A DNA stretch of 64,000 nt from a virus, in IMG/VR virus record IMGVR_UViG_3300035670_000024; one strand, written 5' to 3'. Made by a program: the position numbers and the translations under genes. The notes under the pieces are model-generated. The model was not told the DNA's origin, searched no databases, and worked only from the letters and a program-made list of their open reading frames with translations. Positions 1-28,072 of the stretch are shown here, in pieces; within the stretch, counting starts at the first letter, position 1; each line of letters begins with the position of its first letter.

Positions 1-621
1 CCAGGCAAAACCAATTCCCCAATCTTCAGGGCAGTTGACCTCAATATTCCACTTTGTTTTATCTAAAGAATTTATAAAATTATAAGGCCCAGGATGGCAT
101 GAAACATCATGAAATCCTACTATGCCATCATCAGAAAGAAGGTTTGTATATTCCCAATCTCTTAGTACTTGGTTGATACTATGCCATCCATCAATAAAAA
201 TAAAATCAAATTTTTCTACACCCAATTCTTTAAACTTTAAAACATTTTCTTGATAGTTTGAACTATCATTTACTATGGTGTAAATATTTTTTTCCGAATC
301 ATTTAAAAATGATCTATCTTCAACATCTAGACCAATGTAAAAAGTTTCTTGTTTTTTACTGTTGAAGAATACATATGCAAACGATTCCTCAGCATTTCTT
401 CCTATACCAATTTCAAGAATAGATTTTGCATTTTCTCTAACTTTCATAAACTGTTGCAAAAGAGCAAATCTATTGCAATAGGTAACTTCTTTTGGATAGA
501 TTGCTTCACCATATTCATTAAAAGTATGACCATATCCAAGAGGATGTGGAACACCACCATCAGCATCATCAAAATCAGTTCCAGTTCTAATATCTCTAAT
601 TAAATCAGTTTCCCACTTCAT
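1..621 (-). CDS. Class I SAM-dependent methyltransferase (Methyltransf_24-like), truncated at window edge
   Basis: Not in ORF track; manual translation from ATG at 621: MKWETDLIRD...SILEIGIG...FDFIFIDGWH...GIVGFHD; open to position 1. Confidence 0.8.
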   Translation of the reverse strand, partial: MKWETDLIRDIRTGTDFDDADGGVPHPLGYGHTFNEYGEAIYPKEVTYCNRFALLQQFMKVRENAKSILEIGIGRNAEESFAYVFFNSKKQETFYIGLDVEDRSFLNDSEKNIYTIVNDSSNYQENVLKFKELGVEKFDFIFIDGWHSINQVLRDWEYTNLLSDDGIVGFHDVSCHPGPYNFINSLDKTKWNIEVNCPEDWGIGFAW

Positions 622-624
622 TGT

Positions 625-1095
625 TCAACTCCAATTGTTCTTATAAAATAATGGTTTGTCTGTGCAGATGCCATAACTTCTTTCTATATATTCTGGATTT
701 GAAAGGTATAAATCAGTATTTTCTGGTAAAACAATAACTGATTTAGAAAAGGGAATTTCCCCCACCAAAACCCATCCAATTCCTTTACTAGTCAAAGTAT
801 ATTTGTCTACATCATGCCAAAAATAATGAAAATTTATTGGAGCACTTGATAATTTTTCAAGTGCTTCTCTATTTTTACAATGAATCCAAAGTACATCTTT
901 ATACTTTCTTAACCATTCCATAGTGATAAAATATTGGGGACGATCATGCCCAAGATAGCATTGATCATCCCCAATAACCCATAAATCAATTTCAACATCA
1001 AATCCTTCAGAGATTGCTTCTTCAATATACTCAGTACTATTTTCTCTGAGTGGATTTGGTTCAGTTAAATTTCCCCGATGTGCAATAATTTTCAT
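625..1095 (-). CDS. Glycerophosphodiester phosphodiesterase (GDPD)-like short protein
   Basis: N-terminal IIAHRG, ENS, GFDVEIDLW, LGHD and C-terminal GICTD motifs of the GDPD/PLC-like fold. Confidence 0.75.
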   Translation of the reverse strand: MKIIAHRGNLTEPNPLRENSTEYIEEAISEGFDVEIDLWVIGDDQCYLGHDRPQYFITMEWLRKYKDVLWIHCKNREALEKLSSAPINFHYFWHDVDKYTLTSKGIGWVLVGEIPFSKSVIVLPENTDLYLSNPEYIERSYGICTDKPLFYKNNWS

Positions 1096-1103
1096 TTAAA
1101 TAA

Positions 1104-1871
1104 TCATCCAAATAAAACTCTTCTAAAATCTATGTTATTATTAATTCTAACAACAAAATTAAATCTTTTTAAAGGGACATTTGTAACCTTAAGATATTCA
1201 CTAAGCATGATTTCTGGTTGAAATGGGCAATCATGCAATTTTAGTAAATTATTATACAGGTTTGAATATATGTCCATTGAAAAAGAAGATCCTAATGCGA
1301 ATTGATCATTTATTCCTCCACACCAATCCTCACCATCTGGAATGTAAAGAGCATCTGTCATTTCACTGACATCTAATGTTTTACCCTCAAAATCACTATC
1401 AAATCTCATTCTTATTACACAATCAAAAAGCATATTGTTTTCAGTTTCATATTGTCTTTTTAATTCATTCGCTTTAAATATAGAATAATGCATACTTAAT
1501 GGCCCAATATCTTTTCTTGGGTATATTAATTCATGTGTATCTACATTTTTATTGTACCATTTCCTAGTTATTAAAGATTTTGGAGGTAATCTATTGTAGA
1601 TTAGTTCAAAATCACTCTTTTTTGTATCATAATTTTCTATCAATATTTTTTCATAATCAAATAAATCTATAATATTTGGAGATGTTTCTATGATTTTATC
1701 TAATTCTTTATGTTGGTATCCAAAAACAGTATTTAAGAATCCATCAAAATTTTTTATTTTCCAAGTATGAATAAAAATTTTGATATCATCATTTGGTATA
1801 ATATTTTCAATACTTTTAACTGCTATATGGGGATATCGCACACCACCAGAAATACATAATGCTATTTTCAT
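1104..1871 (-). CDS. Putative glycosyltransferase-like protein (paralog of 5477..6190)
   Basis: MKIALCISG, IFIHTW, SMHYSI, FDCVIRMRFD, GINDQFA motifs; type common in phage and polysaccharide loci. Confidence 0.55.
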   Translation of the reverse strand: MKIALCISGGVRYPHIAVKSIENIIPNDDIKIFIHTWKIKNFDGFLNTVFGYQHKELDKIIETSPNIIDLFDYEKILIENYDTKKSDFELIYNRLPPKSLITRKWYNKNVDTHELIYPRKDIGPLSMHYSIFKANELKRQYETENNMLFDCVIRMRFDSDFEGKTLDVSEMTDALYIPDGEDWCGGINDQFALGSSFSMDIYSNLYNNLLKLHDCPFQPEIMLSEYLKVTNVPLKRFNFVVRINNNIDFRRVLFG

Positions 1872-1941
1872 ATAATGCTTCTATAAAAAGGTTTTCTCAT
1901 AACATTTAGTTCAGTTAAATTTCTCCAGATGTATAAGAATT

Positions 1942-3147
1942 TTAATATTCATTTCTAGTTAATATTAATATCCAACTATTTGGATAAATTCCATTTCCCA
2001 TGATATGATGAGTATTAATTTTTTTTATTGAATCATAAAACTTATTATGCCCATATAGATTGATTTCTTCCATATAAGATTCAAAAGAATCCTCAGAAAG
2101 TAAACCTTCAATTATCAATATTCCACCGGGATTTAGATACTTATAAGCATTTCTAATAATTTTAATTCTAGACCAAAATGTATGATCAGAATCATCTATT
2201 AAGATATCAAATTTGGAATTGGATTTTTCAAATGCTTCACAAATTGATACTTCACTAGTTGCATCCATATAATCATATGAAGTATCTGGAAGATTATCTT
2301 CTTTTGCGCTTTGAAGTAAACTACTATCATTATCCCATCCATAAAGATGAGCATTAGAGAAGTATTCTCTCCAAATTTTCATTGATGAGTTTTTGTATAT
2401 TCCAATTTCTCCAAAATTAATCTGTTTGTATTTGAATGGAGAAAATAGAAGATTATAAAATGATGTGCAATAATTGGAATCTTTTTTAAATGAAAGTGTA
2501 GCGATGTATAGATTTACATTTTCCTGATAAAAACCTTGATGATGAGGTTGCTCGTATTCTTTTCTATACCTACTTGTTAACTTTAGTCCTGAAGATTCTA
2601 CGATTTTAATTATATTTTCAGGTGAAATAAATTCACCAGGATCTGGAGATAAGGTGACATCAGTGGAAATAAGTAATCTTCCGTTTGGTTTTAAGACTCT
2701 ATGAACTTCATCTGCAACATTTTTCCATCCCCAATTTTCAATACCATCTCCCCATGTAGGATTGAAACAGTGTACTGAGCAAGAATCAATTATAACATCT
2801 ACACTCTCCGGTTCCATTTGCTTTAGTTCATATAAAGCATCACCAAGAACCATTTTTGCTAATCCTTTTGGACACCAATGATCAACACTCATAAGATCTA
2901 TTCCAGTCACATCATTGCCCCAACTTGCAATGATGTGAGGAATTACTCCATTTGCAGATCCTAAGTCAATTACGGTTAAATTATTTTTTCCGATTGACTT
3001 GAATTCTTGTAATAATGACACCCATTTGACAATGGCTGCATCCTTGTCCCAAAATTCTCCCCGAAAACCTTTTTCAGGCCATTTTTCTTTTTTTAGTATA
3101 TCCTTACAGATAGAAACATCCTTAGATGTAATTAACTTATTGTACAT
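1942..3147 (-). CDS. Double-domain SAM methyltransferase (class I domain plus sugar O-methyltransferase-like domain)
   Basis: Domain 1: VIDLGSANG...VHRVLKPNG; domain 2: GEIGIYKNSSMKIWREYF...FDILIDDSDH...YLNPGGILIIE. Confidence 0.75.
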   Translation of the reverse strand: MYNKLITSKDVSICKDILKKEKWPEKGFRGEFWDKDAAIVKWVSLLQEFKSIGKNNLTVIDLGSANGVIPHIIASWGNDVTGIDLMSVDHWCPKGLAKMVLGDALYELKQMEPESVDVIIDSCSVHCFNPTWGDGIENWGWKNVADEVHRVLKPNGRLLISTDVTLSPDPGEFISPENIIKIVESSGLKLTSRYRKEYEQPHHQGFYQENVNLYIATLSFKKDSNYCTSFYNLLFSPFKYKQINFGEIGIYKNSSMKIWREYFSNAHLYGWDNDSSLLQSAKEDNLPDTSYDYMDATSEVSICEAFEKSNSKFDILIDDSDHTFWSRIKIIRNAYKYLNPGGILIIEGLLSEDSFESYMEEINLYGHNKFYDSIKKINTHHIMGNGIYPNSWILILTRNEY

Positions 3148-3158
3148 TTTTTAATAGA

Positions 3159-4397
3159 TCAAAAATCAAGAACCCATTCAGGAAGAGAACCGCCGCCAGT
3201 TTCATATCCCCACTTATCTATGGCATCACGAAACTCTTTACCTGGAGTCTTATCAATTGCCTGACGCATTGCTAAAGCACCCGATAAAGTGCCTCCTGGA
3301 TGACCATGAACCGCTCCACCACAATTAGCAAGAAAGTCAGTGCCAAACTTTTCTGCTGTAGTATTTACAATACCAGGATGCATACCACAACTTAGTGCGG
3401 GAAGCACATTTCTCTTATGTAGTGTTGCCATTGTCTGACGAAGTTCATCTTCATCATCACTTAAGTATCCACCCCACATTCCTGCATGAATTGTATCTAC
3501 ACCGCAAAGTCCTGCAAGATCACAGAGAACATCCCAATCAATACCAAATGCATGTCTCTTATCGGTAAGAATCTTATCACCACTCTTTTGATAATGAACA
3601 AATAAAGGTAGATCCATTTTTCTTACAGAATTATAAACTCCTAGACCACTCCAGAAGTTAATATGAATACCATTACCACCATTTTCTGCAACAAACTTAG
3701 CACGATCAAGAATTGTATGATGATCTCCATTAATACAGAAGCAATAGATCACTCCCCTTCCACAATTATTGACAATGTTGGAAATCAATTCTACACGATC
3801 CTCAAGACGGCAAAATGAAGGATTGGCAAGAATCTCATCTTCTTTAATGAAATCAACTCCACCATCCAGAAGTTCTTTGACCATTTCTGATAGAGTTTGT
3901 GGAGAAATGCCTGTTTTTGGTTTTACGATTGCCCCAGAAAGTGGTTTGTCATAGCGATTAACAAACTTACGAATTCCATCAATACCATTCTTAGGCCCTA
4001 GGAATTGTGCTTCCACATCGGCAGGAAATTCAAGTTTACGAAGACGGCAAACTTTAAATACATCAATATCTAATTGACCTCCCATCAATTGACAAAGAAG
4101 ATGTGAGATACCATCACCTTCCCAATCAGTATTTACTTTAGGAAATCCAATTTTAACTTCCCCTTCAGTCAACTGAGAAAGTTCATTTTCATCAGCATAG
4201 ATGACACAAGATGAAAGTTCAAAAAGTTCATCATTTTCCCAGCGATTACGAACTTTTGGATTCCCTACACTTTGTCCAATTGCGAGATTCCAAGCCGCAT
4301 CTTTTAATGTGCCAATATTTGAATATGATTCAATATAATAAGTTGCAATTACACAACGATTTTTTTCATATTCAGTTAGTTCTCTAAAGAATTTCAT
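3159..4397 (-). CDS. RuBisCO large-subunit-like protein (RLP, form IV-type; probably non-carboxylating)
   Basis: GPKNGIDGIR, IVKPKTG, GGVDFIKEDE, DTIHAG, PALSCGMHPG, GGAVHGHPGG follow the RbcL motif order over 412 aa. Confidence 0.93.
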   Translation of the reverse strand: MKFFRELTEYEKNRCVIATYYIESYSNIGTLKDAAWNLAIGQSVGNPKVRNRWENDELFELSSCVIYADENELSQLTEGEVKIGFPKVNTDWEGDGISHLLCQLMGGQLDIDVFKVCRLRKLEFPADVEAQFLGPKNGIDGIRKFVNRYDKPLSGAIVKPKTGISPQTLSEMVKELLDGGVDFIKEDEILANPSFCRLEDRVELISNIVNNCGRGVIYCFCINGDHHTILDRAKFVAENGGNGIHINFWSGLGVYNSVRKMDLPLFVHYQKSGDKILTDKRHAFGIDWDVLCDLAGLCGVDTIHAGMWGGYLSDDEDELRQTMATLHKRNVLPALSCGMHPGIVNTTAEKFGTDFLANCGGAVHGHPGGTLSGALAMRQAIDKTPGKEFRDAIDKWGYETGGGSLPEWVLDF

Positions 4398-4720
4398 GAT
4401 TCAACCTCAAATTTATCAGATGGAATAGACGGAATTTTAACTACCACTAAGGTACAATCTTCAAGAAAAATTGGATCAGCAACTTCTCCTTTTTCAAATA
4501 CAAATACATCCCCACTATTTAACTCATTTCCCTGAATGATCATTTTACCGGAAATAAGAACATTATATTCTATACTTTCCTTATGATAGTGAGGAGACCA
4601 ATATTCATCCTTTTTATGTTGTAGAATACCAACCTCAAAATCTTTGGTTTTAAACAGAGATGGTTCAAAATCTCCAATGAACCATCCACGAACATAATCA
4701 GTAATTTTTGTTATATTCAT
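4394..4720 (-). CDS. Cupin (RmlC-like) domain protein, possible sugar epimerase/isomerase
   Basis: GWFIGDFEP, HYHKESIEYNVLISG cupin metal motif, GDVFVFEKGE; ATGA overlap with RLP start. Confidence 0.75.
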   Translation of the reverse strand: MNITKITDYVRGWFIGDFEPSLFKTKDFEVGILQHKKDEYWSPHYHKESIEYNVLISGKMIIQGNELNSGDVFVFEKGEVADPIFLEDCTLVVVKIPSIPSDKFEVES

Positions 4721-5432
4721 ATTTTTTTAAATAATAATTTAAATCTTCTGGGACACCGACAGGATTATGTTGCCAAGTTGGGATTTGATGTATTCCAACT
4801 TTTCGGCCAAAATGTTTAATCATATAATTGTATGTTGGTCCAACATAGTATTCGCCATTAGGTGCTGTATCTTCAAACTGAATCATTTCTTGAGCACTTT
4901 CAACAAAGTAAAATCCTTTTCTCCAATAATGAATTCCGTTAAGAGATATGTTGCTAATGACCTCCTTCTCTTTCACCTCCAATACTAACCCATCTCTATC
5001 AATTTTGCAATAGCTGTTTTTGGGCGTGTCCGTTTCATAGGTGACTATGACTCCATCATACTTATAGTATCTTGCCGTTTGCAGAAATAATCCAGAATCC
5101 CACCACATTATTTGATCACAATTCGCAATAACCAATTCAGTATTATTATTAATTTCAGTTTCAAATAATAATGCACTACATGCTGGTCCTTTTGTAGTCT
5201 CATCAACTGTGATTATCTTACAATCTGGAACTATTTTTTTAAGCAATTCGTATATTTGAAAATAAAATGAATCTTGCCGAATTACAAAATGATATTTACC
5301 ATCAAGATTCATAGATTCAATTGCACATTGAATCATTGGTTTACCTTCAATTTCAATCAGTGGTTTAGGTAGATGGTATTTGTCTCTTGGAAATCTAGTT
5401 CCTTCTCCAGCCATCGGTATGACAATGTTCAT
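4698..5432 (-). CDS. Sugar-phosphate nucleotidyltransferase (NTP_transferase, GT-A fold)
   Basis: IVIPMAGEGTRF, PKPLI, IANCDQ, NGEYYV, GVPEDL. Confidence 0.85.
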   Translation of the reverse strand: MNIVIPMAGEGTRFPRDKYHLPKPLIEIEGKPMIQCAIESMNLDGKYHFVIRQDSFYFQIYELLKKIVPDCKIITVDETTKGPACSALLFETEINNNTELVIANCDQIMWWDSGLFLQTARYYKYDGVIVTYETDTPKNSYCKIDRDGLVLEVKEKEVISNISLNGIHYWRKGFYFVESAQEMIQFEDTAPNGEYYVGPTYNYMIKHFGRKVGIHQIPTWQHNPVGVPEDLNYYLKKYEYNKNY

Positions 5433-5476
5433 AAAACCTCATTTATTTTGTGTAAAATTTAATATCTAATAAAGTC

Positions 5477-6190
5477 TCATCTATTATTAATAACAACTCT
5501 AAAATCAAATCTATTTACTGCTATGTTGTACATTTCAAAGTATTTGCGAAGCATAGTTTCTGGATGATATTGAACATCTCTAATTTTATCAATATGATTA
5601 TATAAATTAGAATACAAATTCATTGCATCTGAAGATCCTACAGCAAACTGATCATTAATGCCACCACACCAATCTTCTCCTCTTGGAATATTGATTCCAT
5701 TTGGAATGTTGTTTAGATGTAATTCATTTCCTCCAAAGTTACTATCAAATCTCATTCTAATCACTTTATCAAATATCATATTATTTTCTTTTTCATAATC
5801 ACATTTTAATTGATTGCTTTTATAAATTGAATAGTGCATACTAATTGGTCCAACATCATGCCTTGGAACTATACATGCCCCTTGCTGAAATGGGAGAAGA
5901 TTTATAGAATTATGAATTGCTTCAAATTCAGAATGCTTAGATTCATCATAATCTTCTATTAAAAGTTTTTCGTAATTGTAATGTTCTAAAAAATTAAATT
6001 GAGTTTCAAAAATGTTATCTGGTTCTTTACTTTGTAATCCAAAAATAGTTTTTAAAAAACTTTCTGTATCTACAATTTTCCAAGTATGAATAAAGATTTT
6101 GATACAATCATTAGGAACTATTTTTTTAATACTTTCTAGACCTATATGAGGATATCTTATATTTCCTGAAATGCAAATTGCTACTTTCAT
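5477..6190 (-). CDS. Putative glycosyltransferase-like protein (paralog of 1104..1871)
   Basis: MKVAICISG, IFIHTW, SMHYSI, FDKVIRMRFD, GEDWCGGINDQFA. Confidence 0.55.
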   Translation of the reverse strand: MKVAICISGNIRYPHIGLESIKKIVPNDCIKIFIHTWKIVDTESFLKTIFGLQSKEPDNIFETQFNFLEHYNYEKLLIEDYDESKHSEFEAIHNSINLLPFQQGACIVPRHDVGPISMHYSIYKSNQLKCDYEKENNMIFDKVIRMRFDSNFGGNELHLNNIPNGINIPRGEDWCGGINDQFAVGSSDAMNLYSNLYNHIDKIRDVQYHPETMLRKYFEMYNIAVNRFDFRVVINNR

Positions 6191-7179
6191 TTAAAAATAA
6201 AATCTCTTATAAAATTTTTAGATGCTTTAACCAAATATGCGGCATTATCTTGATATCCAAAGGTTATTAGATAATCATTTTTATATTCTGCCATTCCTAC
6301 AGCAAATTCAATTTCTGCATTTATAAAAGAAAATTGTTTAGACACTTTTACGATATTCCAATCTTTGTCCCATACAACAAAACGATGACGATAAACTCCA
6401 TCTTTTCTACCTGCAGGACTTTTTGTAAGATATGTTTCATGAGTTAAGCAAAATCTATAATCATCTCCAAGAGGAATAATCTGAGAACCACCTCTTAAAT
6501 CAATAGTTCCAAAATCTTTCCAATCTTTTTTTATAATACTGGTAGTAGTGTTACTTTCAATGTCATATTTTACGATTTCAGTTCCATTTGTCCATTTTAC
6601 ATAATGATATGGCATGTCAAGAATAGGCATCCAATTCTTATTGCAATATTCTTCGTCTGGAGGTGGAGCAGGAATGCGATGTTGATTAATTTCTTTTACA
6701 CCATTCTCCGTAATTTCTAGTTCGGAAAGTTCCATTCTTCCCGTTCCAATTGTATCTAAATCTCTTCTCACTCCAGTTATGTAAAGTTTGTCGTTCCAAC
6801 GGACAATACGACAGTCTTCTAATCCAACAAAATCCCACAACTCTTTATCTGGGAACTTTGAAGTATCAATATAATGATATTTTTTAATTCTCATATCATC
6901 ATCCATTTCGCACATAATATTCCATGTGCGGAGATGCATATCATTTTCTGGATGAATATAAACTAAAGGTCCCCAAGGGTGTTCAAATTTTTTCTTTTCT
7001 GAATGATATAGTGTATAATTGATATTTCTGAGATTTACTAAAATCTTATCTCCATCAATGTAAACCGAAGGATTTGTAAGTGCCGGCCCTTTTAGTTCAT
7101 TTGATGGAATAATTAAAGGATAAATGCTTCCTCCATTTTGGAGAGCAATTTTGACGAAGTTCATTTCATCTGCTGTCAT
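6187..7179 (-). CDS. Five-bladed beta-propeller glycoside hydrolase/phosphorylase/transferase-like (GH130/GH43 superfamily)
   Basis: NPS, GLEDCR, KNWMP, LRGGS, EFAVG, FGYQD motifs. Confidence 0.65.
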   Translation of the reverse strand: MTADEMNFVKIALQNGGSIYPLIIPSNELKGPALTNPSVYIDGDKILVNLRNINYTLYHSEKKKFEHPWGPLVYIHPENDMHLRTWNIMCEMDDDMRIKKYHYIDTSKFPDKELWDFVGLEDCRIVRWNDKLYITGVRRDLDTIGTGRMELSELEITENGVKEINQHRIPAPPPDEEYCNKNWMPILDMPYHYVKWTNGTEIVKYDIESNTTTSIIKKDWKDFGTIDLRGGSQIIPLGDDYRFCLTHETYLTKSPAGRKDGVYRHRFVVWDKDWNIVKVSKQFSFINAEIEFAVGMAEYKNDYLITFGYQDNAAYLVKASKNFIRDFIFK

Positions 7180-7201
7180 AAAAAATATGAATAATTTTAG
7201 A

Positions 7202-7224
7202 TATTTATTTTCCTATTATAGCAC
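7202..7224 (-). promoter_or_regulatory. T4-type late promoter ATAAATA (7202-7208) plus extended -10 GTGCTATAAT (7215-7224) upstream of the sugar cluster
   Basis: Both motifs read directly on the minus strand 23-45 nt upstream of the ATG at 7179. Confidence 0.55.
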
Positions 7225-7228
7225 GGTT

Positions 7229-7963
7229 TTAAAATAATGTAGAAAATGAGTATCCAGCAGCAGGAGGCCTCGGGCCGCCAAAAGATGCAACAATCAAAGA
7301 ATGACGAGCATTAATCGCAGAAGTCGTAGCGTCAAAACCACCAGTAGGATCTCCTAACACATTAGTTCTAGCAACGGCAATAGAACCGTCAGCACCTGAA
7401 GTAGATGTTTGCTCACCAATTTCAGTCATCGCAGTTGGACCAGTTGTATAATCCTGAGAACTCCAAGTAACTTCCTGACCACCAATACATAACATAATTT
7501 CCAAATAATCATCAGGAGTATCAGTTAAAAAACTCCTAGTATATCCACCAGTAGTCACATTTCCCGATGCACCAGTCGCAAGAGTGTTCACAGAACTTCC
7601 TGCTACAGGATTTATAAGGTCTTGTCCCGTGATTCTCACTACATAACCAAAAGCAAGGTCGGGAAATTGTTCTCCAGTTACTGCGCCAAATATAAAACTT
7701 GGGTTTGTTGCACCCCTTTTAATCCACGCCATTAAACCAGAACCAATTGCCTGGTTGTTTGTATTCTCATTTCCAGTTACAAGGGTCCTTTCTATAATCT
7801 GCCAATCAGCAGGAAGTGAAGGTGTTGTTGCTCCACGAAATGATATACAAGCAACTAAAAGGTCATCAGTTGTTAATCCAGCAGGAGCATTAAGTGTTAG
7901 AGAACCATTAGTTGTGGTTGTCTTTGTTGCTACTGTAGATATTGCTTGATATGCGATTGCCAT
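7229..7963 (-). CDS. Putative virion/tail-associated beta-rich protein
   Basis: 244 aa, Thr/Ala/Gly-rich; follows fibre genes. Confidence 0.5.
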   Translation of the reverse strand: MAIAYQAISTVATKTTTTNGSLTLNAPAGLTTDDLLVACISFRGATTPSLPADWQIIERTLVTGNENTNNQAIGSGLMAWIKRGATNPSFIFGAVTGEQFPDLAFGYVVRITGQDLINPVAGSSVNTLATGASGNVTTGGYTRSFLTDTPDDYLEIMLCIGGQEVTWSSQDYTTGPTAMTEIGEQTSTSGADGSIAVARTNVLGDPTGGFDATTSAINARHSLIVASFGGPRPPAAGYSFSTLF

Positions 7964-7967
7964 AATA

Positions 7968-9377
7968 TTATCTTGGTACTAAACGAAGTGCTACCGTAAC
8001 TCTTGTAACTGTGGTTGCACTATCAACTTGAAATTCTAACACGTCTCTAGCAGAAAGTGTAGTCGTCCAAGAAGATAAAGTAAGGTCTTCTGCTTTTTGT
8101 GCTGAAGATAGTGTTGGAAGTTCTGTTCCTGCGATAGAAGCAGTTGTTGGGAAGTTTGTATAAGTTGCTCTGTTTACATCAACCACAATACTTCCTGATT
8201 GGTCGGCAATAATAGTCCAACCCGTAACTGTATAATCACCATCTAATACAATATGTCCCTTAATACCTGTAGTAATTGCAGAACCACCACCATCAATTAC
8301 AAAATTCAGAGTTCTTGTATTAGAAACAAATGAGGCATTTTGCGAAGCATCAAATTGTAAAACTTCATCAGCGGCACCATTTGCAGCAGGAAGAGTGATA
8401 GTGTAGTTTGATGTGATTGATGCCGGAGCAGTAATGGCAGCAAAGTTAGAATTATCTGCATCCATAAAATGTAATGGGGCATCATCAAGAATTCTTACAA
8501 ATCCAGTTCCGTTTGGATTTAAATCAATATTTCCATTTGTGTTTGTAGATGAAACCTCGTTACCATTGATGTTAATGTTATCAACCTGTAAAGAACCTAA
8601 AGTTCCTACAGAAGTCAAGGAAGAATTGACAACTCCACTTCCTAAAGTTGTTGCAGTTAAAACTGGAGTACCATTAATTTCATAATCCCCTCCAGTTGCT
8701 ACATTAACTCCACCCGTAACGGAAAGAATATCAGTAGTCTTATTATAAGTTAATCCAGCATCACCACCAAATACTCCAGCATCATTAAACTGAACTTGAG
8801 TATCAGAACCACCAGGATTTCCACTAGTTCCTGAATTATCATCTGCCCAAGTTAAAGAAGCAGTATTTGCCGTTGGTGTTGGGGAAGAAGCAATTTTAAG
8901 AACCTGTCCTGCTGTTCCAACTGTATCGGGAAGAATATAAGAACGATTGCCAGCAACGGTAGAAGATGCCGCAAACCCAACATAGTTAGAATTATCACTA
9001 TCTCCAAATCTTAATGCTGCGGCAGAAGAAACATAAAGATTAGTTCCGTCAGTTGTTACGGCAGCACCAGCAAAAGCACCACCGTTATTATACTGAATTT
9101 GATTTGTAGAACCACCAGGAGAAGCAGAAACTGCTGCCCAACTTGTGGTTCCTGAACCATCAGTTTTTAAATAATAATCAGGTGTTCCATCATCTGCTGG
9201 TAGTGTGAATGTATAAGCAGTTCCTACAGTATCAGGAACCTTAATATCAATATGTGAATTCTCATCAGCATCTAATAATCTTATTTTTGCTCCTGTGTTT
9301 CCTACACCAAGAACTTCTGGATTTTTAAGTATTTGACCTCTTGATAATTCCGCCATTATGCTTGTGCCTCCGTCCAT
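7968..9377 (-). CDS. Tail fibre-like protein
   Basis: Repeated YTFTLPADDG..YYLKTDGSG..SW and PGGS..Q(I/V)Q(Y/F)N.GGAF fibre motifs; true start may be the second Met (MAELSR). Confidence 0.7.
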   Translation of the reverse strand: MDGGTSIMAELSRGQILKNPEVLGVGNTGAKIRLLDADENSHIDIKVPDTVGTAYTFTLPADDGTPDYYLKTDGSGTTSWAAVSASPGGSTNQIQYNNGGAFAGAAVTTDGTNLYVSSAAALRFGDSDNSNYVGFAASSTVAGNRSYILPDTVGTAGQVLKIASSPTPTANTASLTWADDNSGTSGNPGGSDTQVQFNDAGVFGGDAGLTYNKTTDILSVTGGVNVATGGDYEINGTPVLTATTLGSGVVNSSLTSVGTLGSLQVDNININGNEVSSTNTNGNIDLNPNGTGFVRILDDAPLHFMDADNSNFAAITAPASITSNYTITLPAANGAADEVLQFDASQNASFVSNTRTLNFVIDGGGSAITTGIKGHIVLDGDYTVTGWTIIADQSGSIVVDVNRATYTNFPTTASIAGTELPTLSSAQKAEDLTLSSWTTTLSARDVLEFQVDSATTVTRVTVALRLVPR

Positions 9378-12238
9378 CTAAGAACTAAATCAACTGATGC
9401 AGACTGTGAGTTATTGTTAGTTACATAAAAAACAATAACTTCAGGTCCATCTGGATAAGTATTATTTCCTCCAATAACTGAGTTTTGTACTTCTTTAATT
9501 GCACTTAAATCATATACTGTAGTTCCAGAAGAAGACAAATACCTAAACAGAACTTCCCCATCAACTGGTGCAGTTCCTCCAAGAATTGTTCCTCCTGAAG
9601 TTGCATATTGTGCAAAAGATGGTTGGAATACATTTGAAACACCTACAGTTGTGGTGTTTGCATTCAACCAAGTTGCAGCACCTACATTACTTGGATTGAG
9701 AATAGCAGAAATTTCAAGGTTTCTAGCAGAGTTATTATTTAATCCAAGTTCTCTAAGAGTAATTTGAGAACGATTGATAACTTCTCTTTCTCCAAGAAGT
9801 CCTGGAATTGTATTTGAAACTGATGGTGCTGGACGGAAAAGGAGAATTGCGGTAGAAGAGTTGCCAGCAACAGAGACATTCGTTCTTGATAGGTTAAATA
9901 GATATCCACTATCTTGGTCAAAACCACCATCCATAATGACCGCAGAACCCCAGTGTGAGATAGTAGGAGCACAAGTATTATTGAGTAGAATAACACTTGA
10001 ACCTGCTGGATGATTATAGGAATTTGTTGAACCACTAAAAGTTCTGTTTGCCCCAGAAAGATATTGAATATAAGATGTTGCTGTTGTAACTCCAGTAAGA
10101 GTGTTACCCGATTTACCAGTATAAGACATCAGTTCATGATAAATTGTTCCTGATTGATTACTTGTTACCATTACAATATTAGAAGAAATTCCAACTGGAG
10201 GAACTGGGAATCTTGAAGCATCTGATAAAGTTAAAGATGTGGTTGTTATTCCTGTTGCCACTGCTAACTTATCAATTGCAGAAGTATTTGAAACCTCATA
10301 ACGACAAGGGAGGTTTCCACTTCTCATGTATGCTTCATCATTAATATTGTTGTTCTTCATACGATGAGCAGTAATAAATTCACCAGCAGGCCCACGAAGC
10401 ATAAAGTCAATAAATCCAGCACCATACCAAGAATATTGAATTCCAAGCATCTGCATTTTTGCTAAGTCAACATGATAACCTGATGGTGTATCAGTCCCAT
10501 CAATACGATCTATATTGAATTGACTTTGTGGAACTCTGAGTTCTCTTACAATCGTTGGTTTAACTCCTGATGCAGTTGCTCCACGATTTTCTGGTGAAAT
10601 TGAAAGTGAAGTATTACTTGTAATCGTTGAGACTAAGTATGTTTGCCCGCGAATTGTAATCAGGTCTCCTACCTTAAGTTGCTCTGTAAATCTTGTGTTT
10701 GTTCCTGTGACTGTTTGAGAACCATTAGTGACTGCAACAGTTCCCGCAAGTTGGAAAGTAGAAGACCTCCTTACAACGGCAAGTTCTTGTCCATCATACT
10801 CCCAGAACATTCCGTTTGAGTCATCAAAAAGCCCACAACGAATTGATGCACCTACCCATTTAATTACAGCAATTCTTGGTTGCGCTTCTAATACTGCAGT
10901 GGCATCCGTTGGCGCTGGACTTCCCGCTGCTACAGTAAATGTAAATTCATTTGTAATTGATTTTACCTCATACTCTCCATTATAATTTACCGAAGTAATA
11001 CCATAAAGTCTTACAGTTGCACCTCTTTGAAGACCATGAGGAACCTGTGTTGTTACACTAATATCTGGAGCAGAATAAGTAACTGTTTGAATATCAAAAA
11101 CTGGATTAAAAAGTGTTCCTGTAGAGAATAAGACTCCTTTACCAGACTGATAACGGAAATATCTTTTTGACTGCCTCTTTGCTTCTAGTCCATGAATTGG
11201 TAGTGATGGTCCCATCAAAACTCCACCATCAAATGGACGATGAATAAAGAAACTATCATTAATCGCATAAACAGAAACATTAGTTGTTGTAATAGAACCA
11301 TTTGTTACTGTTTGCCCAGCATCATAAGAAATCTGTGTTCCATTTATAACTGTATTGACGAAAAATCTACCTTCATGTGCTTGCGTTCCTGCAGTTGTAT
11401 CGACGATATAAATTGGAGAACCAGGAACAAGACCATGAGGACTTCCAAAGGTAACAGTAACAATTCCTCCTGCACCATTACCACTCATGGTGGATAAATC
11501 CATCGGTGTTCCTGCATAAACACCACCTTCCTTAACAACTGTGTAAGGATTACTTAGACTTCCAGTAGCAATACTACCTTTTGCTAGATAATCAAAAGTT
11601 GTGGTTCCGTTGGTTGCAATTACAACAAACAAACCATCAGCAAGAGTATTCGTAGTTCCAGTTACGGCAAATGGAGTTCCAACAGGAAGTGCTTGTCCAC
11701 TTTCCACAGTAACACGAACTGTTGAATAAGTTGCAGCACCTAGAGAAGAAACATCAGTAACTGTAAGTGCAGGACCAGGAAGTTCAAAGAATGATGGAAT
11801 ATTACGATTGAGACCTAATGACTGCCATTTAGTATTCTGTAATCCATATTCAAAGTCAGCATCAATCAGTGATTGGGGTTGTGCAATTCTTATTCTTTCA
11901 ATCGCATCAATGGCAAACTCGTAAGGACGAACTTTTAATCCGTGCTGTTCATCATCAATAAAAATTGAAAGTTCATCACTATCAGACATTCCAGTTGTAT
12001 CATATTCTAATATGATATCAGTATATCCATCAGTAGAATTTTCAAAATCAGTATCAGTTGTTGGTAGAGGATAATAAGTCGCAGTAAATCCTTTACCTGG
12101 GTCTAGTTGACTTGCAATTACAATTCCATCAGTTGCATTCACAATCAGTAAGATATCATTAACAGTATGTCTATCTGAAATTCTTATCTTCTTTTCAGAA
12201 GCATAAAAACGATATCTTTCTTCTCTTCTTCTTGCCAT
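9356..12238 (-). CDS. Large virion structural protein (cyanophage-type)
   Basis: 960 aa, beta-rich with HGL..G repeats and VTGTNTRF motif; fibre-region context. Confidence 0.65.
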   Translation of the reverse strand: MARRREERYRFYASEKKIRISDRHTVNDILLIVNATDGIVIASQLDPGKGFTATYYPLPTTDTDFENSTDGYTDIILEYDTTGMSDSDELSIFIDDEQHGLKVRPYEFAIDAIERIRIAQPQSLIDADFEYGLQNTKWQSLGLNRNIPSFFELPGPALTVTDVSSLGAATYSTVRVTVESGQALPVGTPFAVTGTTNTLADGLFVVIATNGTTTFDYLAKGSIATGSLSNPYTVVKEGGVYAGTPMDLSTMSGNGAGGIVTVTFGSPHGLVPGSPIYIVDTTAGTQAHEGRFFVNTVINGTQISYDAGQTVTNGSITTTNVSVYAINDSFFIHRPFDGGVLMGPSLPIHGLEAKRQSKRYFRYQSGKGVLFSTGTLFNPVFDIQTVTYSAPDISVTTQVPHGLQRGATVRLYGITSVNYNGEYEVKSITNEFTFTVAAGSPAPTDATAVLEAQPRIAVIKWVGASIRCGLFDDSNGMFWEYDGQELAVVRRSSTFQLAGTVAVTNGSQTVTGTNTRFTEQLKVGDLITIRGQTYLVSTITSNTSLSISPENRGATASGVKPTIVRELRVPQSQFNIDRIDGTDTPSGYHVDLAKMQMLGIQYSWYGAGFIDFMLRGPAGEFITAHRMKNNNINDEAYMRSGNLPCRYEVSNTSAIDKLAVATGITTTSLTLSDASRFPVPPVGISSNIVMVTSNQSGTIYHELMSYTGKSGNTLTGVTTATSYIQYLSGANRTFSGSTNSYNHPAGSSVILLNNTCAPTISHWGSAVIMDGGFDQDSGYLFNLSRTNVSVAGNSSTAILLFRPAPSVSNTIPGLLGEREVINRSQITLRELGLNNNSARNLEISAILNPSNVGAATWLNANTTTVGVSNVFQPSFAQYATSGGTILGGTAPVDGEVLFRYLSSSGTTVYDLSAIKEVQNSVIGGNNTYPDGPEVIVFYVTNNNSQSASVDLVLRWTEAQA

Positions 12239-12244: not shown

Positions 12245-14263
12245 TTAAACTCCGAATACGATGCTGTATGAAATGGATTGTTCCGCTGTTACAAATGAAG
12301 TTGTTGGAGAACTGGTAGATTTAATTGCAACTCCAAAGAATACTTGTCCTGCTTTAGGTGCCTCAACAAAATTAATTTTGATTGGGTCAGTTGTTCTATT
12401 TGTACCACCACTAATATAAAAACCTGCAGTTTGTGATGGGTCTGGTTGTTGAACTATTCCTCCTACAGAAATAAGTAGTCGTGCTGCACTATCTATCTCA
12501 CTATTTATGAAATTACCTGAATTATCGGAAATGATAAATTGAGTTGTTGAACCATTAAAGAGTGAAGAAATATCATTCAAAATTACGGATTGATCAGGAA
12601 CAGATGCTGTTGACCCAACAGCACCTTGTAGACCTTGTAGACCCTGCGATCCTTGAAGACCTTGAACACTGCCAGCAAGACCTTGAACACCTTGATTTGC
12701 TAACCCTTGAAGACCTTGGAGACCTTGAGATCCTGATATACCTTGATTGCTAAGACCTTGAACACCTTGAGAACCTTGTGATCCTGAAGTTCCCTGAGAA
12801 CCTGAAGTACCTTGAGAACCAACACCTTGAGTTCCTTGTAATCCTTGAGATCCTTGAGATCCTTGAGATCCTGAAGTACCTTGAGAACCAACACCTTGAG
12901 TTCCTTGTAGTCCTTGAGAACCTTGAGAACCAGAAATACCTTGATTACTTAAACCCTGAGTACCCTGTAATCCTTGAGAACCTTGAGATCCTGATGTTCC
13001 TTGAGAACCAGAAATACCTTGATTACTTAAACCTTGAGTTCCTTGTAGTCCCTGTGAACCCTGAGAACCTGAAGTACCTTGTGATCCAGAAGTTCCTTGA
13101 TTACTTAAACCTTGCGTTCCTTGTCTACCCTGAAGTCCTTGAGCACCTTGAGATCCAGATGTTCCTTGAGATCCAGAAGTTCCCTGAGAACCTGAAGTAC
13201 CTTGAGAACCAACACCTTGAGTTCCTTGTAGTCCTTGAGAACCTTGAGAACCAGAAATACCTTGATTACTTAAACCTTGAGTTCCTTGCAGTCCTTGAGA
13301 TCCTGATGTACCTTGAGAACCAGAAATGCCTTGATTACTTAGACCTTGTGTACCTTGTAGTCCCTGAGAACCTTGCGATCCAGAAGTACCTTGGGAACCA
13401 GATGTTCCTTGAGATCCTGCTATACCTTGATTACTTAAACCTTGAGTTCCTTGTCTACCCTGAAGACCTTGAGAACCTTGAGATCCTGATGTACCTTGAG
13501 AACCAGAAATACCTTGATTACTTAAACCCTGAGTTCCTTGTAGTCCCTGTGAACCCTGAGATCCTGATACACCTTGATTACTTAATCCTTGATTACCTTG
13601 AACACCTTGTCTACCCTGAAGACCTTGAGAACCTTGTGATCCTGATGTTCCCTGAGATCCAGAAATACCTTGATTACTTAAACCTTGAATACCCTGTAAT
13701 CCTTGAAAACCTTGAGATCCAGAAATACCTTGATTACTTAAACCTTGAGTACCTTGATTTCCTTGTAATCCCTGTGATCCCTGAGATCCTGATGTACCTT
13801 GGGAACCAGAAATACCTTGATTACTTAAACCTTGAGTTCCTTGTCTTCCCTGTAATCCTTGAAACCCTTGAGAACCTAAAGTACCTTGATTACCTTGTAC
13901 TCCTTGACTTCCTGAAGAACCTTGAAGTCCTTGATCTCCACGAATTTGTCCTACATTATCCCAGTCAGTTCCCGTATAAACCCACAAATCACCAGTATTT
14001 TCCTCAATAACACCATCACCTGCAAAGGGAGGATACCAAGAAAATTGAGTATCGTCGTTAGTTAATGTAGTATGGGGTTCCGATGTAGTAACACTAGTAA
14101 CAACACCAACAATAGTTACAGAAGTTCCATCAGTACCAGATTTTCCCTGAACACCTTGATTTGAAAAACCTTGGATTCCCTGTTCACCGATTATTCCTTG
14201 AACACCTTGAGCGCCTTGATCGCCTTTAAATGTTCCTCCAATAATAGTACTTAGAAATGCCAC
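12245..14263 (-). CDS. Collagen-like (Gly-X-Gln) fibre protein
   Basis: Long GXQ tract with GLSNQ interruptions; C-terminal DISSLFNG..LLISVGGIVQQP domain; GTG start. Confidence 0.8.
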   Translation of the reverse strand: MAFLSTIIGGTFKGDQGAQGVQGIIGEQGIQGFSNQGVQGKSGTDGTSVTIVGVVTSVTTSEPHTTLTNDDTQFSWYPPFAGDGVIEENTGDLWVYTGTDWDNVGQIRGDQGLQGSSGSQGVQGNQGTLGSQGFQGLQGRQGTQGLSNQGISGSQGTSGSQGSQGLQGNQGTQGLSNQGISGSQGFQGLQGIQGLSNQGISGSQGTSGSQGSQGLQGRQGVQGNQGLSNQGVSGSQGSQGLQGTQGLSNQGISGSQGTSGSQGSQGLQGRQGTQGLSNQGIAGSQGTSGSQGTSGSQGSQGLQGTQGLSNQGISGSQGTSGSQGLQGTQGLSNQGISGSQGSQGLQGTQGVGSQGTSGSQGTSGSQGTSGSQGAQGLQGRQGTQGLSNQGTSGSQGTSGSQGSQGLQGTQGLSNQGISGSQGTSGSQGSQGLQGTQGLSNQGISGSQGSQGLQGTQGVGSQGTSGSQGSQGSQGLQGTQGVGSQGTSGSQGTSGSQGSQGVQGLSNQGISGSQGLQGLQGLANQGVQGLAGSVQGLQGSQGLQGLQGAVGSTASVPDQSVILNDISSLFNGSTTQFIISDNSGNFINSEIDSAARLLISVGGIVQQPDPSQTAGFYISGGTNRTTDPIKINFVEAPKAGQVFFGVAIKSTSSPTTSFVTAEQSISYSIVFGV

Positions 14264-14334
14264 GGTTTATCTTTTTATTTTTTATTATTTATTTAATAAT
14301 TATAATAATGAATTATAATAATGTTGTTGTTCAG

Positions 14335-21770: not shown

Positions 21771-21779
21771 TTGAAGATA

Positions 21780-22109
21780 TTAATTGAGGGTTTCTAAGAT
21801 GCTTGCGACAAATTTTAAATTGCTGGCATTACTACCTGATAATACTAATTTATCTCCACTTTCAAGAACCAATTTTCCAGAAAGAAGATTCGCAGTATCA
21901 TTTGCTGAAATTGGAAATTCTTTTAACATTTCAGTATCAGTTGATGATCTGCGATGAGTTAGAGAAACATCTTCATTTGTTGATCCGATGTTTGCAACTT
22001 GCGCTAAAAGAACAACACCTGTATATCCAACAGGAGCAGTATAAATTGAAGTTGCACTTGTGCCTACAACTGAAGTAACTGTTTTAAAAACATTAAGTGC
22101 TAATGCCAT
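21780..22109 (-). CDS. Small virion protein (paralog of 31189..31548)
   Basis: ALNVFKT..IYTAPVG..VLLAQVAN..LVLESGD..SILET. Confidence 0.7.
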   Translation of the reverse strand: MALALNVFKTVTSVVGTSATSIYTAPVGYTGVVLLAQVANIGSTNEDVSLTHRRSSTDTEMLKEFPISANDTANLLSGKLVLESGDKLVLSGSNASNLKFVASILETLN

Positions 22110-22113
22110 TGTA

Positions 22114-25002: not shown

Positions 25003-25027
25003 ATTATCTTATTGGTATTTACCTTCA

Positions 25028-25051
25028 AAAAACTCTTATGTAAGAGTTTTT
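25028..25051. promoter_or_regulatory. Inverted repeat AAAAACTCTTA-TG-TAAGAGTTTTT (hairpin/terminator-like) just downstream of late promoter ATAAATA (25054-25060, minus strand)
   Basis: Perfect 11-bp arms read directly. Confidence 0.5.
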
Positions 25052-25056
25052 ATTAT

Positions 25057-25266: not shown

Positions 25267-25299
25267 TTCAATTAAAATTTCTATCCTATTTAGAGACAT

Positions 25300-25325
25300 A
25301 AAAAAGAGGAGGATTTCTCCTCCTC
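25300..25325 (-). terminator. Rho-independent terminator
   Basis: Stem GAGGAGGA / TCCTCCTC with 4-nt loop, followed by T6 on the minus strand, right after the stop of the 643-aa gene. Confidence 0.85.
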
Positions 25326-25349
25326 GTATAAAGACTTAAATATTAATTA

Positions 25350-28044: not shown

Positions 28045-28072
28045 AAGAACCGGGATTTTTAATTATTTAGTA

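What the first reader, a model, noticed from the sequence alone, without database searches (positions are those of the whole stretch)
625..7179. Phage-encoded RuBisCO-like protein embedded in a nucleotide-sugar/glycosylation operon
Seen: a 412-aa RbcL-fold gene is overlap-coupled (ATGA) to a cupin, which overlaps a sugar nucleotidyltransferase. These are flanked by two glycosyltransferase-like paralogs, a GH130-like propeller, methyltransferases and a GDPD-like protein, all co-oriented. Known: characterised RLPs act on sugar-phosphate or acid-sugar enolates (MtnW enolase, R. rubrum MTRu-1P isomerase, decarboxylases/transcarboxylase of apiose and hamamelose catabolism), and those roles are catabolic or salvage. 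Inference: here the RLP works anabolically, rearranging a host pentose phosphate (e.g. Ru5P or RuBP, abundant in cyanobacteria) into an unusual, possibly branched, sugar or polyol phosphate. That product would then be epimerised (cupin), activated (NTP transferase), transferred and methylated. This would be a viral RLP-dependent sugar biosynthesis pathway.
Basis: partly seen in the sequence, partly recalled or inferred. Interest (0 to 1): 0.92.

Follow-up and report, generated by a model that had tools for sequence, protein, structure and literature searches.

The report
Phage RuBisCO-like enzyme in sugar-activation cassette
A large tailed phage carries a RuBisCO relative that cannot fix CO2 and that, in phages, SAR11, Legionella and tiny archaea, almost always sits beside (and once is fused to) a nucleotide-attaching enzyme in surface-sugar gene clusters, so it probably helps build an unusual activated sugar-like unit, a role never tested for this family.

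Summary
On the minus strand, a 412-aa RuBisCO large-chain homologue (3159-4397) overlaps a 108-aa cupin by ATGA. The cupin overlaps a nucleotidyltransferase. Around them lie two GT-A-fold paralogues, methyltransferases, a miniature GDPD-type phosphodiesterase and a weakly GH130-like protein, in a phage tail-gene region.

The RLP belongs to one clade with a fixed active-site signature. The Mg/carbamate enolisation core is kept. E60, T65, N123, H294, R295, H298 and K334 are replaced.

The partner genes travel with the RLP:
- Nucleotidyltransferase: 60 of 63 distinct viral loci and 40 of 44 cellular loci (Pelagibacterales, Legionellaceae, DPANN, Saccharibacteria and others). One natural RLP-transferase fusion exists.
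- Mini-GDPD and cupin: frequent but optional.

An anabolic role in glycan-precursor synthesis is therefore well supported. The substrate is not shown:
- RuBP and methylthioribulose-1-P are unlikely to be general substrates, because their source enzymes are missing from most of the RLP-bearing genomes checked.
- Ribulose-5-P is only suggested, by a RibB-transferase fusion in cyanophage S-SKS1.
- A cyanobacterial host is not established.

Phage RLPs were already reported by Jaffe et al. (2019). I found no paper describing the cassette. This scan has noted the same cassette before on other DNA, in at least 33 genomes.

The parts
3159..4397 (-). Form IV-type RuBisCO-like protein (412 aa) of the nucleotidyltransferase-linked clade
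   Evidence: PF00016 at 1.8e-42. PDB 2cwx at 3e-39. All NCBIfam equivalogs score far below their cut-offs. Clade active-site signature. Clade monophyly.
4394..4720 (-). Small metal cupin (108 aa), coupled to the RLP by an ATGA overlap; an optional cassette member
   Evidence: phrog_24762 at 2.7e-34. HxH...E motif invariant. PDB profile hits are cupins. Present in 52 of 63 viral and 12 of 44 cellular loci. Overlap confirmed.
4698..5432 (-). Nucleotidyltransferase (244 aa), the constant partner of the RLP
   Evidence: NTP_transf_3 and IspD hits are weak. PDB 4evw at 1.6e-8. phrog_3980 at 7e-58. Adjacent to the RLP in 60 of 63 viral and 40 of 44 cellular loci. The fusion protein P0242 has a domain 38% identical to it.
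625..1095 (-). Miniature GDPD/PLC-type phosphodiesterase barrel (156 aa)
   Evidence: Invariant H6 R7 G8, E18 N19, E35 x D37 and G49 H50. Profile hits to GDPDs. Model pLDDT 97. Foldseek top hits are all GDPDs. Present in 52 of 63 viral and 19 of 44 cellular loci.
1104..1871 (-). DUF7796-like putative transferase, paralogue a (255 aa); GT-A fold inferred from its paralogue
   Evidence: Weak DUF7796 hit. phrog_13607. 53% identical to 5477-6190. The family occurs in 31 of 63 viral loci.
5477..6190 (-). DUF7796-like GT-A-fold putative transferase, paralogue b (237 aa)
   Evidence: Model pLDDT 84. Foldseek top hits are GT6 retaining glycosyltransferases, probability 1.0, TM about 0.45. Atlas look-alikes are named 'capsular polysaccharide biosynthesis / glycosyltransferase'.
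1942..3147 (-). Protein with two SAM-methyltransferase domains (401 aa); a variable island member
   Evidence: Methyltransf_31, _11 and _25 hits in two regions of the protein. Present in 17 of 80 viral loci.
1..621 (-). Methyltransf_24 methyltransferase. The window's left edge cuts off its stop codon and last two residues (full gene 209 aa at L089:7647-8276)
   Evidence: Pfam hits. Present in 35 of 80 viral loci. Natural MT24-transferase fusions exist (P0139, P0144).
6187..7179 (-). 330-aa protein, possibly GH130-like; a variable island member
   Evidence: No Pfam hit of its own. A homologue hits GH130 at 1.4e-4. Atlas feature hits include clusters in which 32% of members carry GH130. Present in 14 of 80 viral loci.
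7229..7963 (-). 244-aa protein of unknown family between the island and the virion genes; membership uncertain
   Evidence: No Pfam, PHROG or NCBIfam hit. Not found in any of the 80 viral loci.

Best explanation
The RLP is a catalytically competent, non-carboxylating member of a distinct RuBisCO-superfamily clade. It works together with the adjacent nucleotidyltransferase as a two-enzyme core.

Inferred mechanism:
1. The RLP uses its retained carbamylated-lysine/Mg2+ site (K201, D203, E204, with K175 and K177) to enolise a common phosphorylated ketose and isomerise or rearrange it. A pentulose phosphate such as ribulose 5-phosphate is my best guess for the substrate.
2. The nucleotidyltransferase joins the product to an NMP, giving an NDP-activated unit.
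3. GT-A-fold DUF7796/WavE-like transferases place that unit on a glycan. In Legionellaceae a LicD-family phosphotransferase would do this instead.
4. Methyltransferases decorate the result.

The cupin and the mini-GDPD phosphodiesterase are frequent accessory steps whose roles are unknown.

In this phage the cassette is one module of a low-GC, variable glycan island next to the tail-fibre genes. It would modify either host surface glycans or virion proteins during infection.

Shown: the gene anatomy, the conserved linkage, the fusion, the active-site signature and the fold assignments. Inferred: the enolisation chemistry, the substrate, the order of steps and the target glycan.
For: - Linkage: the transferase lies next to the RLP in 77 of 80 viral loci, 60 of 63 non-redundant viral loci and 40 of 44 cellular loci. 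It holds in both gene orders and down to 35% RLP identity.
- Fusion: P0242 is a single 667-aa chain with PF00016 plus PF00483. Its RLP part is 53% identical and its transferase part 38% identical to the window proteins. In the same superfamily, the IF-2B/form III fusions P0281 and P0287 join consecutive steps (PMC6389311).
- Context: the islands carry DegT, FdtA, SDR epimerases, GT2, GT4, GT11 and GT47. In Pelagibacter the operon sits in a locus with heptose-pathway genes, GT9 and a KdsB-like gene. In Legionellaceae a LicD gene is the neighbour in 4 of 4 loci.
- Active site: K175, K177, K201, D203, E204, S379, G381 and G403 are invariant in 60 sequences, G404 in 58 of 60 and H327 in 54 of 60. 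E60G, T65N, N123G, T173I, H294Q, K334Y and G380C are invariant; R295K (57 of 60) and H298D (55 of 60) are nearly so.
- The clade is monophyletic against form I and OiaX-type references.
- Pentulose-phosphate hint: in cyanophage S-SKS1 the same transferase subfamily (35% identical) is fused to a genuine RibB domain, which uses ribulose 5-P (E = 5e-65). DUF7796-like genes lie beside it.
- The island's GC is 29-35%, against 38-42% in the neighbouring virion genes.
Against: - No biochemical data exist for any member of the clade.
- The fusion was seen on a single 2.5-kb metagenomic contig.
- The transferase could act before the RLP. Gene order varies.
- The transferase scores better against sugar-1-phosphate enzymes than against IspD/TarI-type enzymes. 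That fits poorly with an acyclic ketose-5-phosphate product.
- GT-A-fold transferases suggest glycosyl transfer, whereas LicD and the mini-GDPD suggest phospho-alcohol chemistry. The two hints pull in different directions.
- The RibB argument is an analogy at 35% identity.
- The tree lacks MtnW, DeepYkr, form II and form III references.
Confidence: 0.55

Rival explanations
1. The order is reversed. The nucleotidyltransferase first makes an ordinary NDP-sugar or NDP-ketose, and the RLP (with the cupin) then acts on the nucleotide-linked sugar as a keto-isomerase or epimerase. The diphosphate would sit in the retained P1 phosphate site.
For: - The P1-site glycines and S379 are conserved, while the P2-site residues R295 and H298 are changed.
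- In this phage the gene order is transferase, cupin, RLP.
- The transferase resembles sugar-1-phosphate nucleotidyltransferases.
- The downstream transferases have a GT-A fold.
- Small cupins are known keto-isomerases and epimerases of NDP-sugars; FdtA occurs in related islands.
Against: - No RuBisCO-family enzyme is known to bind a nucleotide-linked substrate (my own knowledge of the family).
- In the fusion, and in DPANN and Legionella loci, the order is RLP then transferase.
- No nucleotide-binding element is evident in the RLP.
Confidence: 0.2
2. The RLP and cupin form a Rhodospirillum-type MTA shunt. The RLP isomerises 5-methylthioribulose-1-P (or 5-deoxyribulose-1-P), and the cupin releases the thiol. 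This would recycle SAM by-products of the island's methyltransferases and radical-SAM enzymes.
For: - An RLP plus a cupin methylsulfurylase is a known pair in R. rubrum (PMC6302742).
- The islands contain methyltransferases and, in one subgroup, radical-SAM enzymes.
Against: - MtnA and any IF-2B relative are absent from 3 of 5 RLP-bearing genomes, including complete Pelagibacter and Verrucomicrobiae chromosomes.
- The cupin is missing from 32 of 44 cellular loci, whereas the transferase is nearly universal.
- Methyltransferases produce SAH, not MTA (established biochemistry).
- This model does not explain the fusion to a nucleotidyltransferase.
Confidence: 0.06
3. The RLP is a catabolic decarboxylase or transcarboxylase of acid-sugar phosphates (OiaX type, apiose-like pathways), carried by the phage to redirect host carbon.
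For: The NCBIfam OiaX model hits at 3.8e-44. Plasmid OiaX genes are the best-annotated distant relatives.
Against: - The score is 151 bits against a cut-off of 700, and identity is at most 32%.
- OiaX-type genes sit next to four-carbon acid-sugar kinases, TIM and RpiB. None of these is near the clade's genes.
- The active sites differ: the OiaX type has K177A/S and keeps H294, R295 and K334.
- The two groups separate in the tree with support 100.
Confidence: 0.03
4. The RLP is a true carboxylase, or a non-catalytic sugar-phosphate-binding or scaffold protein.
For: It has a full-length RbcL fold with N- and C-terminal domains. Its best HMM scores are to form III models.
Against: - K334Y, H294Q, E60G and N123G are invariant, which argues against carboxylation on established RuBisCO mechanism.
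- Strict conservation of K201, D203, E204, K175 and K177 over 35-100% identity argues for catalysis, not mere binding.
Confidence: 0.04

Closest known systems
'Form IV-like' RuBisCO-related proteins of phages and Beckwithbacteria (Jaffe, Castelle, Dupont & Banfield 2019, Mol Biol Evol; PMC6389311)
   Same: Divergent RLPs on Myoviridae-type contigs from IMG/VR that lack carboxylation residues, with relatives in CPR bacteria. My survey found 228 IMG/VR contigs, plus CPR and DPANN relatives.
   Different: The paper left the function open. Its text never mentions glycosyl- or nucleotidyl-transferases or the genomic context of the phage RLPs. I had none of the paper's sequences, so I infer that the two clades are the same and have not shown it.
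R. rubrum DeepYkr RLP (5-methylthioribulose-1-P 1,3-isomerase) with its cupin methylsulfurylase
   Same: An RLP that acts as an enolising isomerase of a ketose phosphate and is encoded with a small cupin (PMC6302742).
   Different: That is a salvage pathway that needs MtnA, which is missing from most carriers checked here. The constant partner here is a nucleotidyltransferase, and the cupin is optional.
OiaX / OiaT-type RLPs of D-apiose catabolism
   Same: RuBisCO-fold enzymes that act on phosphorylated sugar derivatives without fixing CO2.
   Different: They are catabolic and lie next to four-carbon acid-sugar kinases. Identity is at most 32%. The active-site pattern differs. They form a separate clade.
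Polyol- and alcohol-phosphate activation systems (TarI/TarJ CDP-ribitol, LicC/LicD phosphocholine, IspD)
   Same: A small GT-A-like nucleotidyltransferase activates a phosphorylated unit derived from a pentulose phosphate or an alcohol, and a LicD-type or other transferase adds it to a glycan. LicD is the neighbour in Legionellaceae. The transferase gives weak IspD and NTP_transf_3 hits.
   Different: The feeder enzyme here is an RLP instead of a reductase or kinase. The phage uses GT-A-fold DUF7796-like transferases. Which nucleotide is used is unknown.
S-SKS1 nucleotidyltransferase-RibB fusion and S-CAM9 HAD-nucleotidyltransferase cassettes of cultured cyanophages
   Same: They share the transferase subfamily (35-41% identical) and DUF7796-like neighbours. 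S-CAM9 also has a mini-GDPD.
   Different: They have no RLP. A RibB or HAD domain takes the feeder position. Neither cassette has been studied experimentally, as far as my literature searches show.

Membership tests
RuBisCO large-subunit superfamily (PF00016) | Significant match to the catalytic TIM-barrel domain, plus an N-terminal domain | tested here: met
   PF00016 at 146 bits against a cut-off of 30.1. The alignment to 2cwx covers residues 10-383.
Bona fide RuBisCO (forms I-III) | Carboxylation residues E60, N123, H294, R295 and K334 present | tested here: not met
   E60G, N123G, H294Q, R295K and K334Y in the window protein; apart from R295K (57 of 60) these changes are invariant across 60 clade members. 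rubisco_III scores 194 bits against a cut-off of 497.
Form IV RuBisCO-like proteins (broad sense) | RbcL homologue that keeps K201, D203 and E204 but lacks the carboxylase residues | tested here: met
MtnW / YkrW DK-MTP-1-P enolase | Reaches the NCBIfam equivalog cut-off; methionine-salvage gene context | tested here: not met
   TIGR03332 scores 126 against a cut-off of 514, and NF007095 scores 168 against 409. No mtn genes lie nearby.
DeepYkr MTRu-1-P isomerase (R. rubrum type) | Co-occurs with MtnA, which supplies MTRu-1-P; paired with a cupin methylsulfurylase | tested here: not met
   MtnA is absent from 3 of 5 carrier genomes. The cupin is absent from 32 of 44 cellular loci. I could not make a direct sequence comparison with the R. 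rubrum proteins because no reference sequence was available.
OiaX 3-oxo-isoapionate-4-P decarboxylase | Reaches the NF042437 cut-off; neighbour is a four-carbon acid-sugar kinase | tested here: not met
   151 bits against a cut-off of 700. Different context and a separate clade.
Phage 'Form IV-like' clade of Jaffe et al. 2019 | Groups with that paper's phage and Beckwithbacteria sequences in a tree | not testable with these tools
   None of the paper's sequences were held here. Source (IMG/VR, Myoviridae-like), residue losses and CPR relatives are consistent.
Glycerophosphodiester phosphodiesterase (GDPD) superfamily, for 625-1095 | TIM-barrel fold with the HR(G), E..D and HD catalytic motifs | tested here: met
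   Motifs invariant. Profile hits at 4e-5. Foldseek top hits are all GDPDs, probability 1.0. The protein is only 156 aa against about 240, TMq is about 0.56, and no Pfam model is reached.
Sugar-phosphate nucleotidyltransferase (PF00483 / PF12804), for 4698-5432 | N-terminal G-x-G-t-R-f nucleotide-binding motif and a family HMM match | tested here: met
   PMAGEGTRF lies at the N-terminus. PF12804 scores 26.3 against a cut-off of 27 for the window protein, but the SAR11 orthologue scores 42.8 against 21.2 on PF00483. PDB 4evw matches at 1.6e-8.

The most novel reading that the evidence does not exclude
A whole clade of RuBisCO-like proteins, common in marine and freshwater phages, SAR11, Legionellaceae, CPR bacteria and DPANN archaea, is the first RuBisCO-fold enzyme with a biosynthetic role. 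It would convert a central pentulose (or other ketose) phosphate into a so far undescribed sugar-like or ketol phosphate. A dedicated nucleotidyltransferase would then activate that product, and it would be built into cell-surface or virion glycans.
Probability: 0.5. Interest if true: 0.85.

Novelty: new variant of a known kind. Interest (0 to 1): 0.68.

Why it matters
Every RLP function known so far is salvage or catabolism. A biosynthetic, glycan-directed RLP would add a new reaction class to one of the most studied enzyme folds.

It would also point to an unknown activated sugar-like building block in very abundant organisms: SAR11 and the large phages of aquatic systems. It would explain why phages carry a 'RuBisCO' gene that has nothing to do with carbon fixation.

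The clade also occurs in culturable Legionella species and in Azospirillum oleiclasticum, so the question can be tested directly by ordinary genetics and enzymology.

Tried and rejected
- Megablast and tblastn against 50,697 deposited phage genomes found no RLP homologue. No cultured phage there can serve as a model. Records close to this genome may have been withheld.
- The PHROG library has no family for the RLP.
- Literature searches that combined RLP with cupin, nucleotidyltransferase, cytidylyltransferase, polysaccharide or nucleotide sugar found nothing relevant. The term 'IV-GOS' gave one unrelated review.
- A search for long forms of the transferase gave tandem-transferase, methyltransferase-transferase and HAD-transferase fusions. 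None of the 120 listed proteins included an RLP.
- BLAST did not detect LicD outside Legionellaceae, so the phospho-alcohol-transfer idea cannot be generalised.
- The promoter and terminator scan of 1-9500 was no better than shuffled sequence.
- The careful maximum-likelihood tree did not finish in the time allowed. I used the quick tree instead.
- I could not obtain MtnW, DeepYkr, Photo, form II or form III reference sequences for the tree.
- I ran no protein-complex prediction, because the report does not claim physical binding.

Full report
**What is there**

The window is part of a 72-kb IMG/VR virus fragment with an estimated completeness of 34%, which implies a genome near 200 kb. Every gene from position 1 to 59420 lies on the minus strand. 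From 7968 onwards the genes are virion, tail-fibre and baseplate genes by PHROG. Four tRNA genes lie at 42360-43099. The nearest cultured phages are cyanomyoviruses at only about 35% protein identity, so the host is not established.

The reported stretch is a low-GC island: 29-35% GC, against 38-42% in the adjacent virion genes. It runs past the window's left edge into a 1031-aa protein with GT2/GT7C, GT25 and WavE domains, and then into a helicase.

**The genes**

In transcription order:
- 7229-7963: an orphan 244-aa protein.
- 6187-7179: a 330-aa protein with weak GH130 likeness.
- 5477-6190: a DUF7796-like protein.
- 4698-5432: a nucleotidyltransferase.
- 4394-4720: a cupin.
- 3159-4397: the RLP.
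- 1942-3147: a protein with two methyltransferase domains.
- 1104-1871: a second DUF7796-like protein, 53% identical to the first.
- 625-1095: a 156-aa protein.
- 1-621: a Methyltransf_24 enzyme.

The cupin stop and the RLP start overlap as ATGA.

The 156-aa protein keeps the GDPD catalytic motifs and gives profile hits to GDPDs. Its model has pLDDT 97, and the best structural matches are all GDPDs, followed by PI-PLC barrels. It is a miniature phosphodiesterase barrel.

The DUF7796-like protein at 5477-6190 models as a GT-A fold nearest GT6. Only 'GH130-like' remains weak.

**The RLP**

It is a full-length RbcL homologue that reaches no curated equivalog.

I aligned 60 clade members with a form I reference and mapped the canonical sites:
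- Invariant: K175, K177, K201, D203, E204, S379, G381 and G403.
- Nearly invariant: G404 (58 of 60) and H327 (54 of 60).
- Invariant changes: E60G, T65N, N123G, T173I, H294Q, K334Y and G380C.
- Nearly invariant changes: R295K (57 of 60) and H298D (55 of 60).

The metal/carbamate enolisation core is kept and the carboxylation apparatus is gone. The pattern stays fixed from 100% down to 35% identity, which argues for one conserved chemistry.

OiaX-type catabolic RLPs differ. They have K177A/S and keep H294, R295 and K334. They sit beside four-carbon acid-sugar kinases. They fall outside the clade in a quick maximum-likelihood tree, which supports the clade at 100. That tree lacks MtnW, DeepYkr, form II and form III references.

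**Linkage**

- IMG/VR holds 228 contigs that encode a relative.
- Across the 80 fetched loci, the transferase is next to the RLP in 77, the cupin in 67 and the mini-GDPD in 69.
- An assumption-free clustering of all ORFs around 63 non-redundant RLPs gave: transferase 60, mini-GDPD 52, cupin 52, DUF7796-like 31, WavE-like 30, SDR epimerases 19 and GT11 11.
- In species-representative cellular genomes, 44 loci were found. They include Pelagibacterales, Verrucomicrobiota, Woese-, Pace-, Nano- and Micrarchaeota, Saccharibacteria, Elusimicrobia, Turneriella, Balneola, Azospirillum oleiclasticum, three Legionella species, Tatlockia and Francisellaceae.
- The transferase is adjacent in 40 of those 44 loci, in both gene orders. 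The mini-GDPD is present in 19 and the cupin in 12.
- In a complete Pelagibacter chromosome, the operon reads 2-hydroxyacid dehydrogenase, unknown protein, mini-GDPD, transferase, RLP. It lies among heptose-pathway, GT9 and KdsB-like genes.
- In Legionellaceae the RLP-transferase pair is divergent from a LicD gene in 4 of 4 loci.
- An exhaustive representative search found a 667-aa natural fusion, P0242. It has an RLP part (53% identical) followed by a transferase of the same subfamily (38% identical; E = 2e-51). It was seen on one short contig.
- The same search recovered fusions of an IF-2B-family domain (the family of ribose-1,5-bisphosphate isomerase) with form III RuBisCO. These join consecutive steps of a known pathway (PMC6389311).

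**Substrate**

- MtnA and all IF-2B relatives are missing from 3 of 5 carrier genomes, including complete Pelagibacter and Verrucomicrobiae chromosomes.
- A genuine phosphoribulokinase with a form I RuBisCO occurs only in Azospirillum. In the other four genomes the clade RLP is the only RuBisCO-family gene.
- Methylthioribulose-1-P and RuBP are therefore unlikely to be general substrates.
- A positive hint is indirect. In cyanophage S-SKS1 the same transferase subfamily is fused to a true RibB domain, which uses ribulose 5-P (E = 5e-65). DUF7796-like, HAD and transaldolase-like genes lie beside it.
- In S-CAM9 the transferase is fused to a HAD domain and lies near three DUF7796-like genes and an unannotated mini-GDPD.
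- The constant toolkit thus seems to be the transferase plus GT-A-fold transferases, with or without the mini-GDPD. Interchangeable enzymes acting on sugar phosphates feed it, and the RLP is one of them.
- Whether the activated unit is a glycosyl donor or a phospho-alcohol donor is open. GT-A transferases point to a glycosyl donor. LicD, the mini-GDPD and the acyclic RibB product point to a phospho-alcohol donor.

**Comparison and novelty**

Jaffe et al. (2019) reported about 80 divergent 'Form IV-like' RLPs on Myoviridae-type contigs and in Beckwithbacteria. They left the function open and did not discuss gene context. I found no paper that links an RLP to a nucleotidyltransferase, a cupin or glycan synthesis.

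The phage RLP itself is therefore known. The conserved cassette and the biosynthetic reading are, as far as I could search, not described. This scan has already noted the same cassette on other DNA, in at least 33 genomes. I re-derived the linkage, the signature and the fusion independently here.

**Verdict**

I rate this a new variant of a known kind, with interest 0.68.

Noticed in passing
L090:6001-7428 (Synechococcus phage S-SKS1, AGH31555): A 475-aa fusion of this nucleotidyltransferase subfamily with a genuine DHBP synthase (RibB) domain (E = 5e-65). It is annotated only as DHBP synthase. DUF7796-like, HAD and transaldolase-like genes flank it. It suggests an activated product derived from ribulose 5-P in a cultured phage.
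   Followed up: partly
L091:8043-8501 (Synechococcus phage S-CAM9): An unannotated 152-aa mini-GDPD ORF, 41% identical to the window's. It overlaps the annotated HAD hydrolase and a hypothetical gene. S-CAM9 has the transferase, DUF7796-like and mini-GDPD toolkit but no RLP.
   Followed up: partly
P0300 (583 aa): A protein with an N-terminal TIR domain fused to a full RuBisCO-like protein, 30% identical to the window RLP. I know of no described role for this domain combination.
   Followed up: no
L029-L037 (for example L033:9241-13567): One RLP subgroup is 84% identical to the window RLP, yet its transferase and cupin are only 36-44% identical. Downstream it carries a kinase-like gene, a DHQS-like sugar-phosphate cyclase, an SDR and two radical-SAM enzymes. 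This points to mosaic exchange of cassette parts and a more elaborate pathway.
   Followed up: partly
L125:3891-11480 (Azospirillum oleiclasticum): In a cultured bacterium the cassette (mini-GDPD, RLP, cupin, transferase) is followed by CysD-like and CysN/CysC sulfate-activation genes and a TPR-GT41 protein. This hints at a sulfated or protein-linked glycan.
   Followed up: no
L081:8772-9202 versus L082:6732-7163 (Pelagibacter): In the complete genome CP159823.1 the mini-GDPD reading frame is interrupted: 11 stops when read from the usual start, and only a 106-aa gene is called. Metagenomic copies of the same locus encode the intact 143-aa protein.
   Followed up: partly
L092, L093 (MAG bins labelled Methanobacteriota and Crocinitomicaceae): Contigs of 3-5 kb carry the phage-type cassette. 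L093 carries an RLP identical to that of viral contig L043, and L092 one 84% identical to the window's. These are probably phage DNA binned into cellular MAGs, so such labels should not count as hosts.
   Followed up: partly
window 12245-16491 and 17382-35539: Several very large collagen-like tail-fibre genes, with strong PHROG tail-fibre hits, and long antisense ORFs inside them. A 2171-aa ORF lies at 35599-42114.
   Followed up: no
window 42360-43099 and 43687-44355: Four tRNA genes (Thr-TGT, Leu-TAA, Ile-TAT, Leu-CAA) lie next to a 2OG-Fe(II) oxygenase gene (phrog_81).
   Followed up: no
L089:4536-7631 (just left of the window): A 1031-aa protein that combines GT2/GT7C, GT25 and WavE-like domains closes the glycan island. 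It is followed by a ResIII/DEAD helicase.
   Followed up: partly
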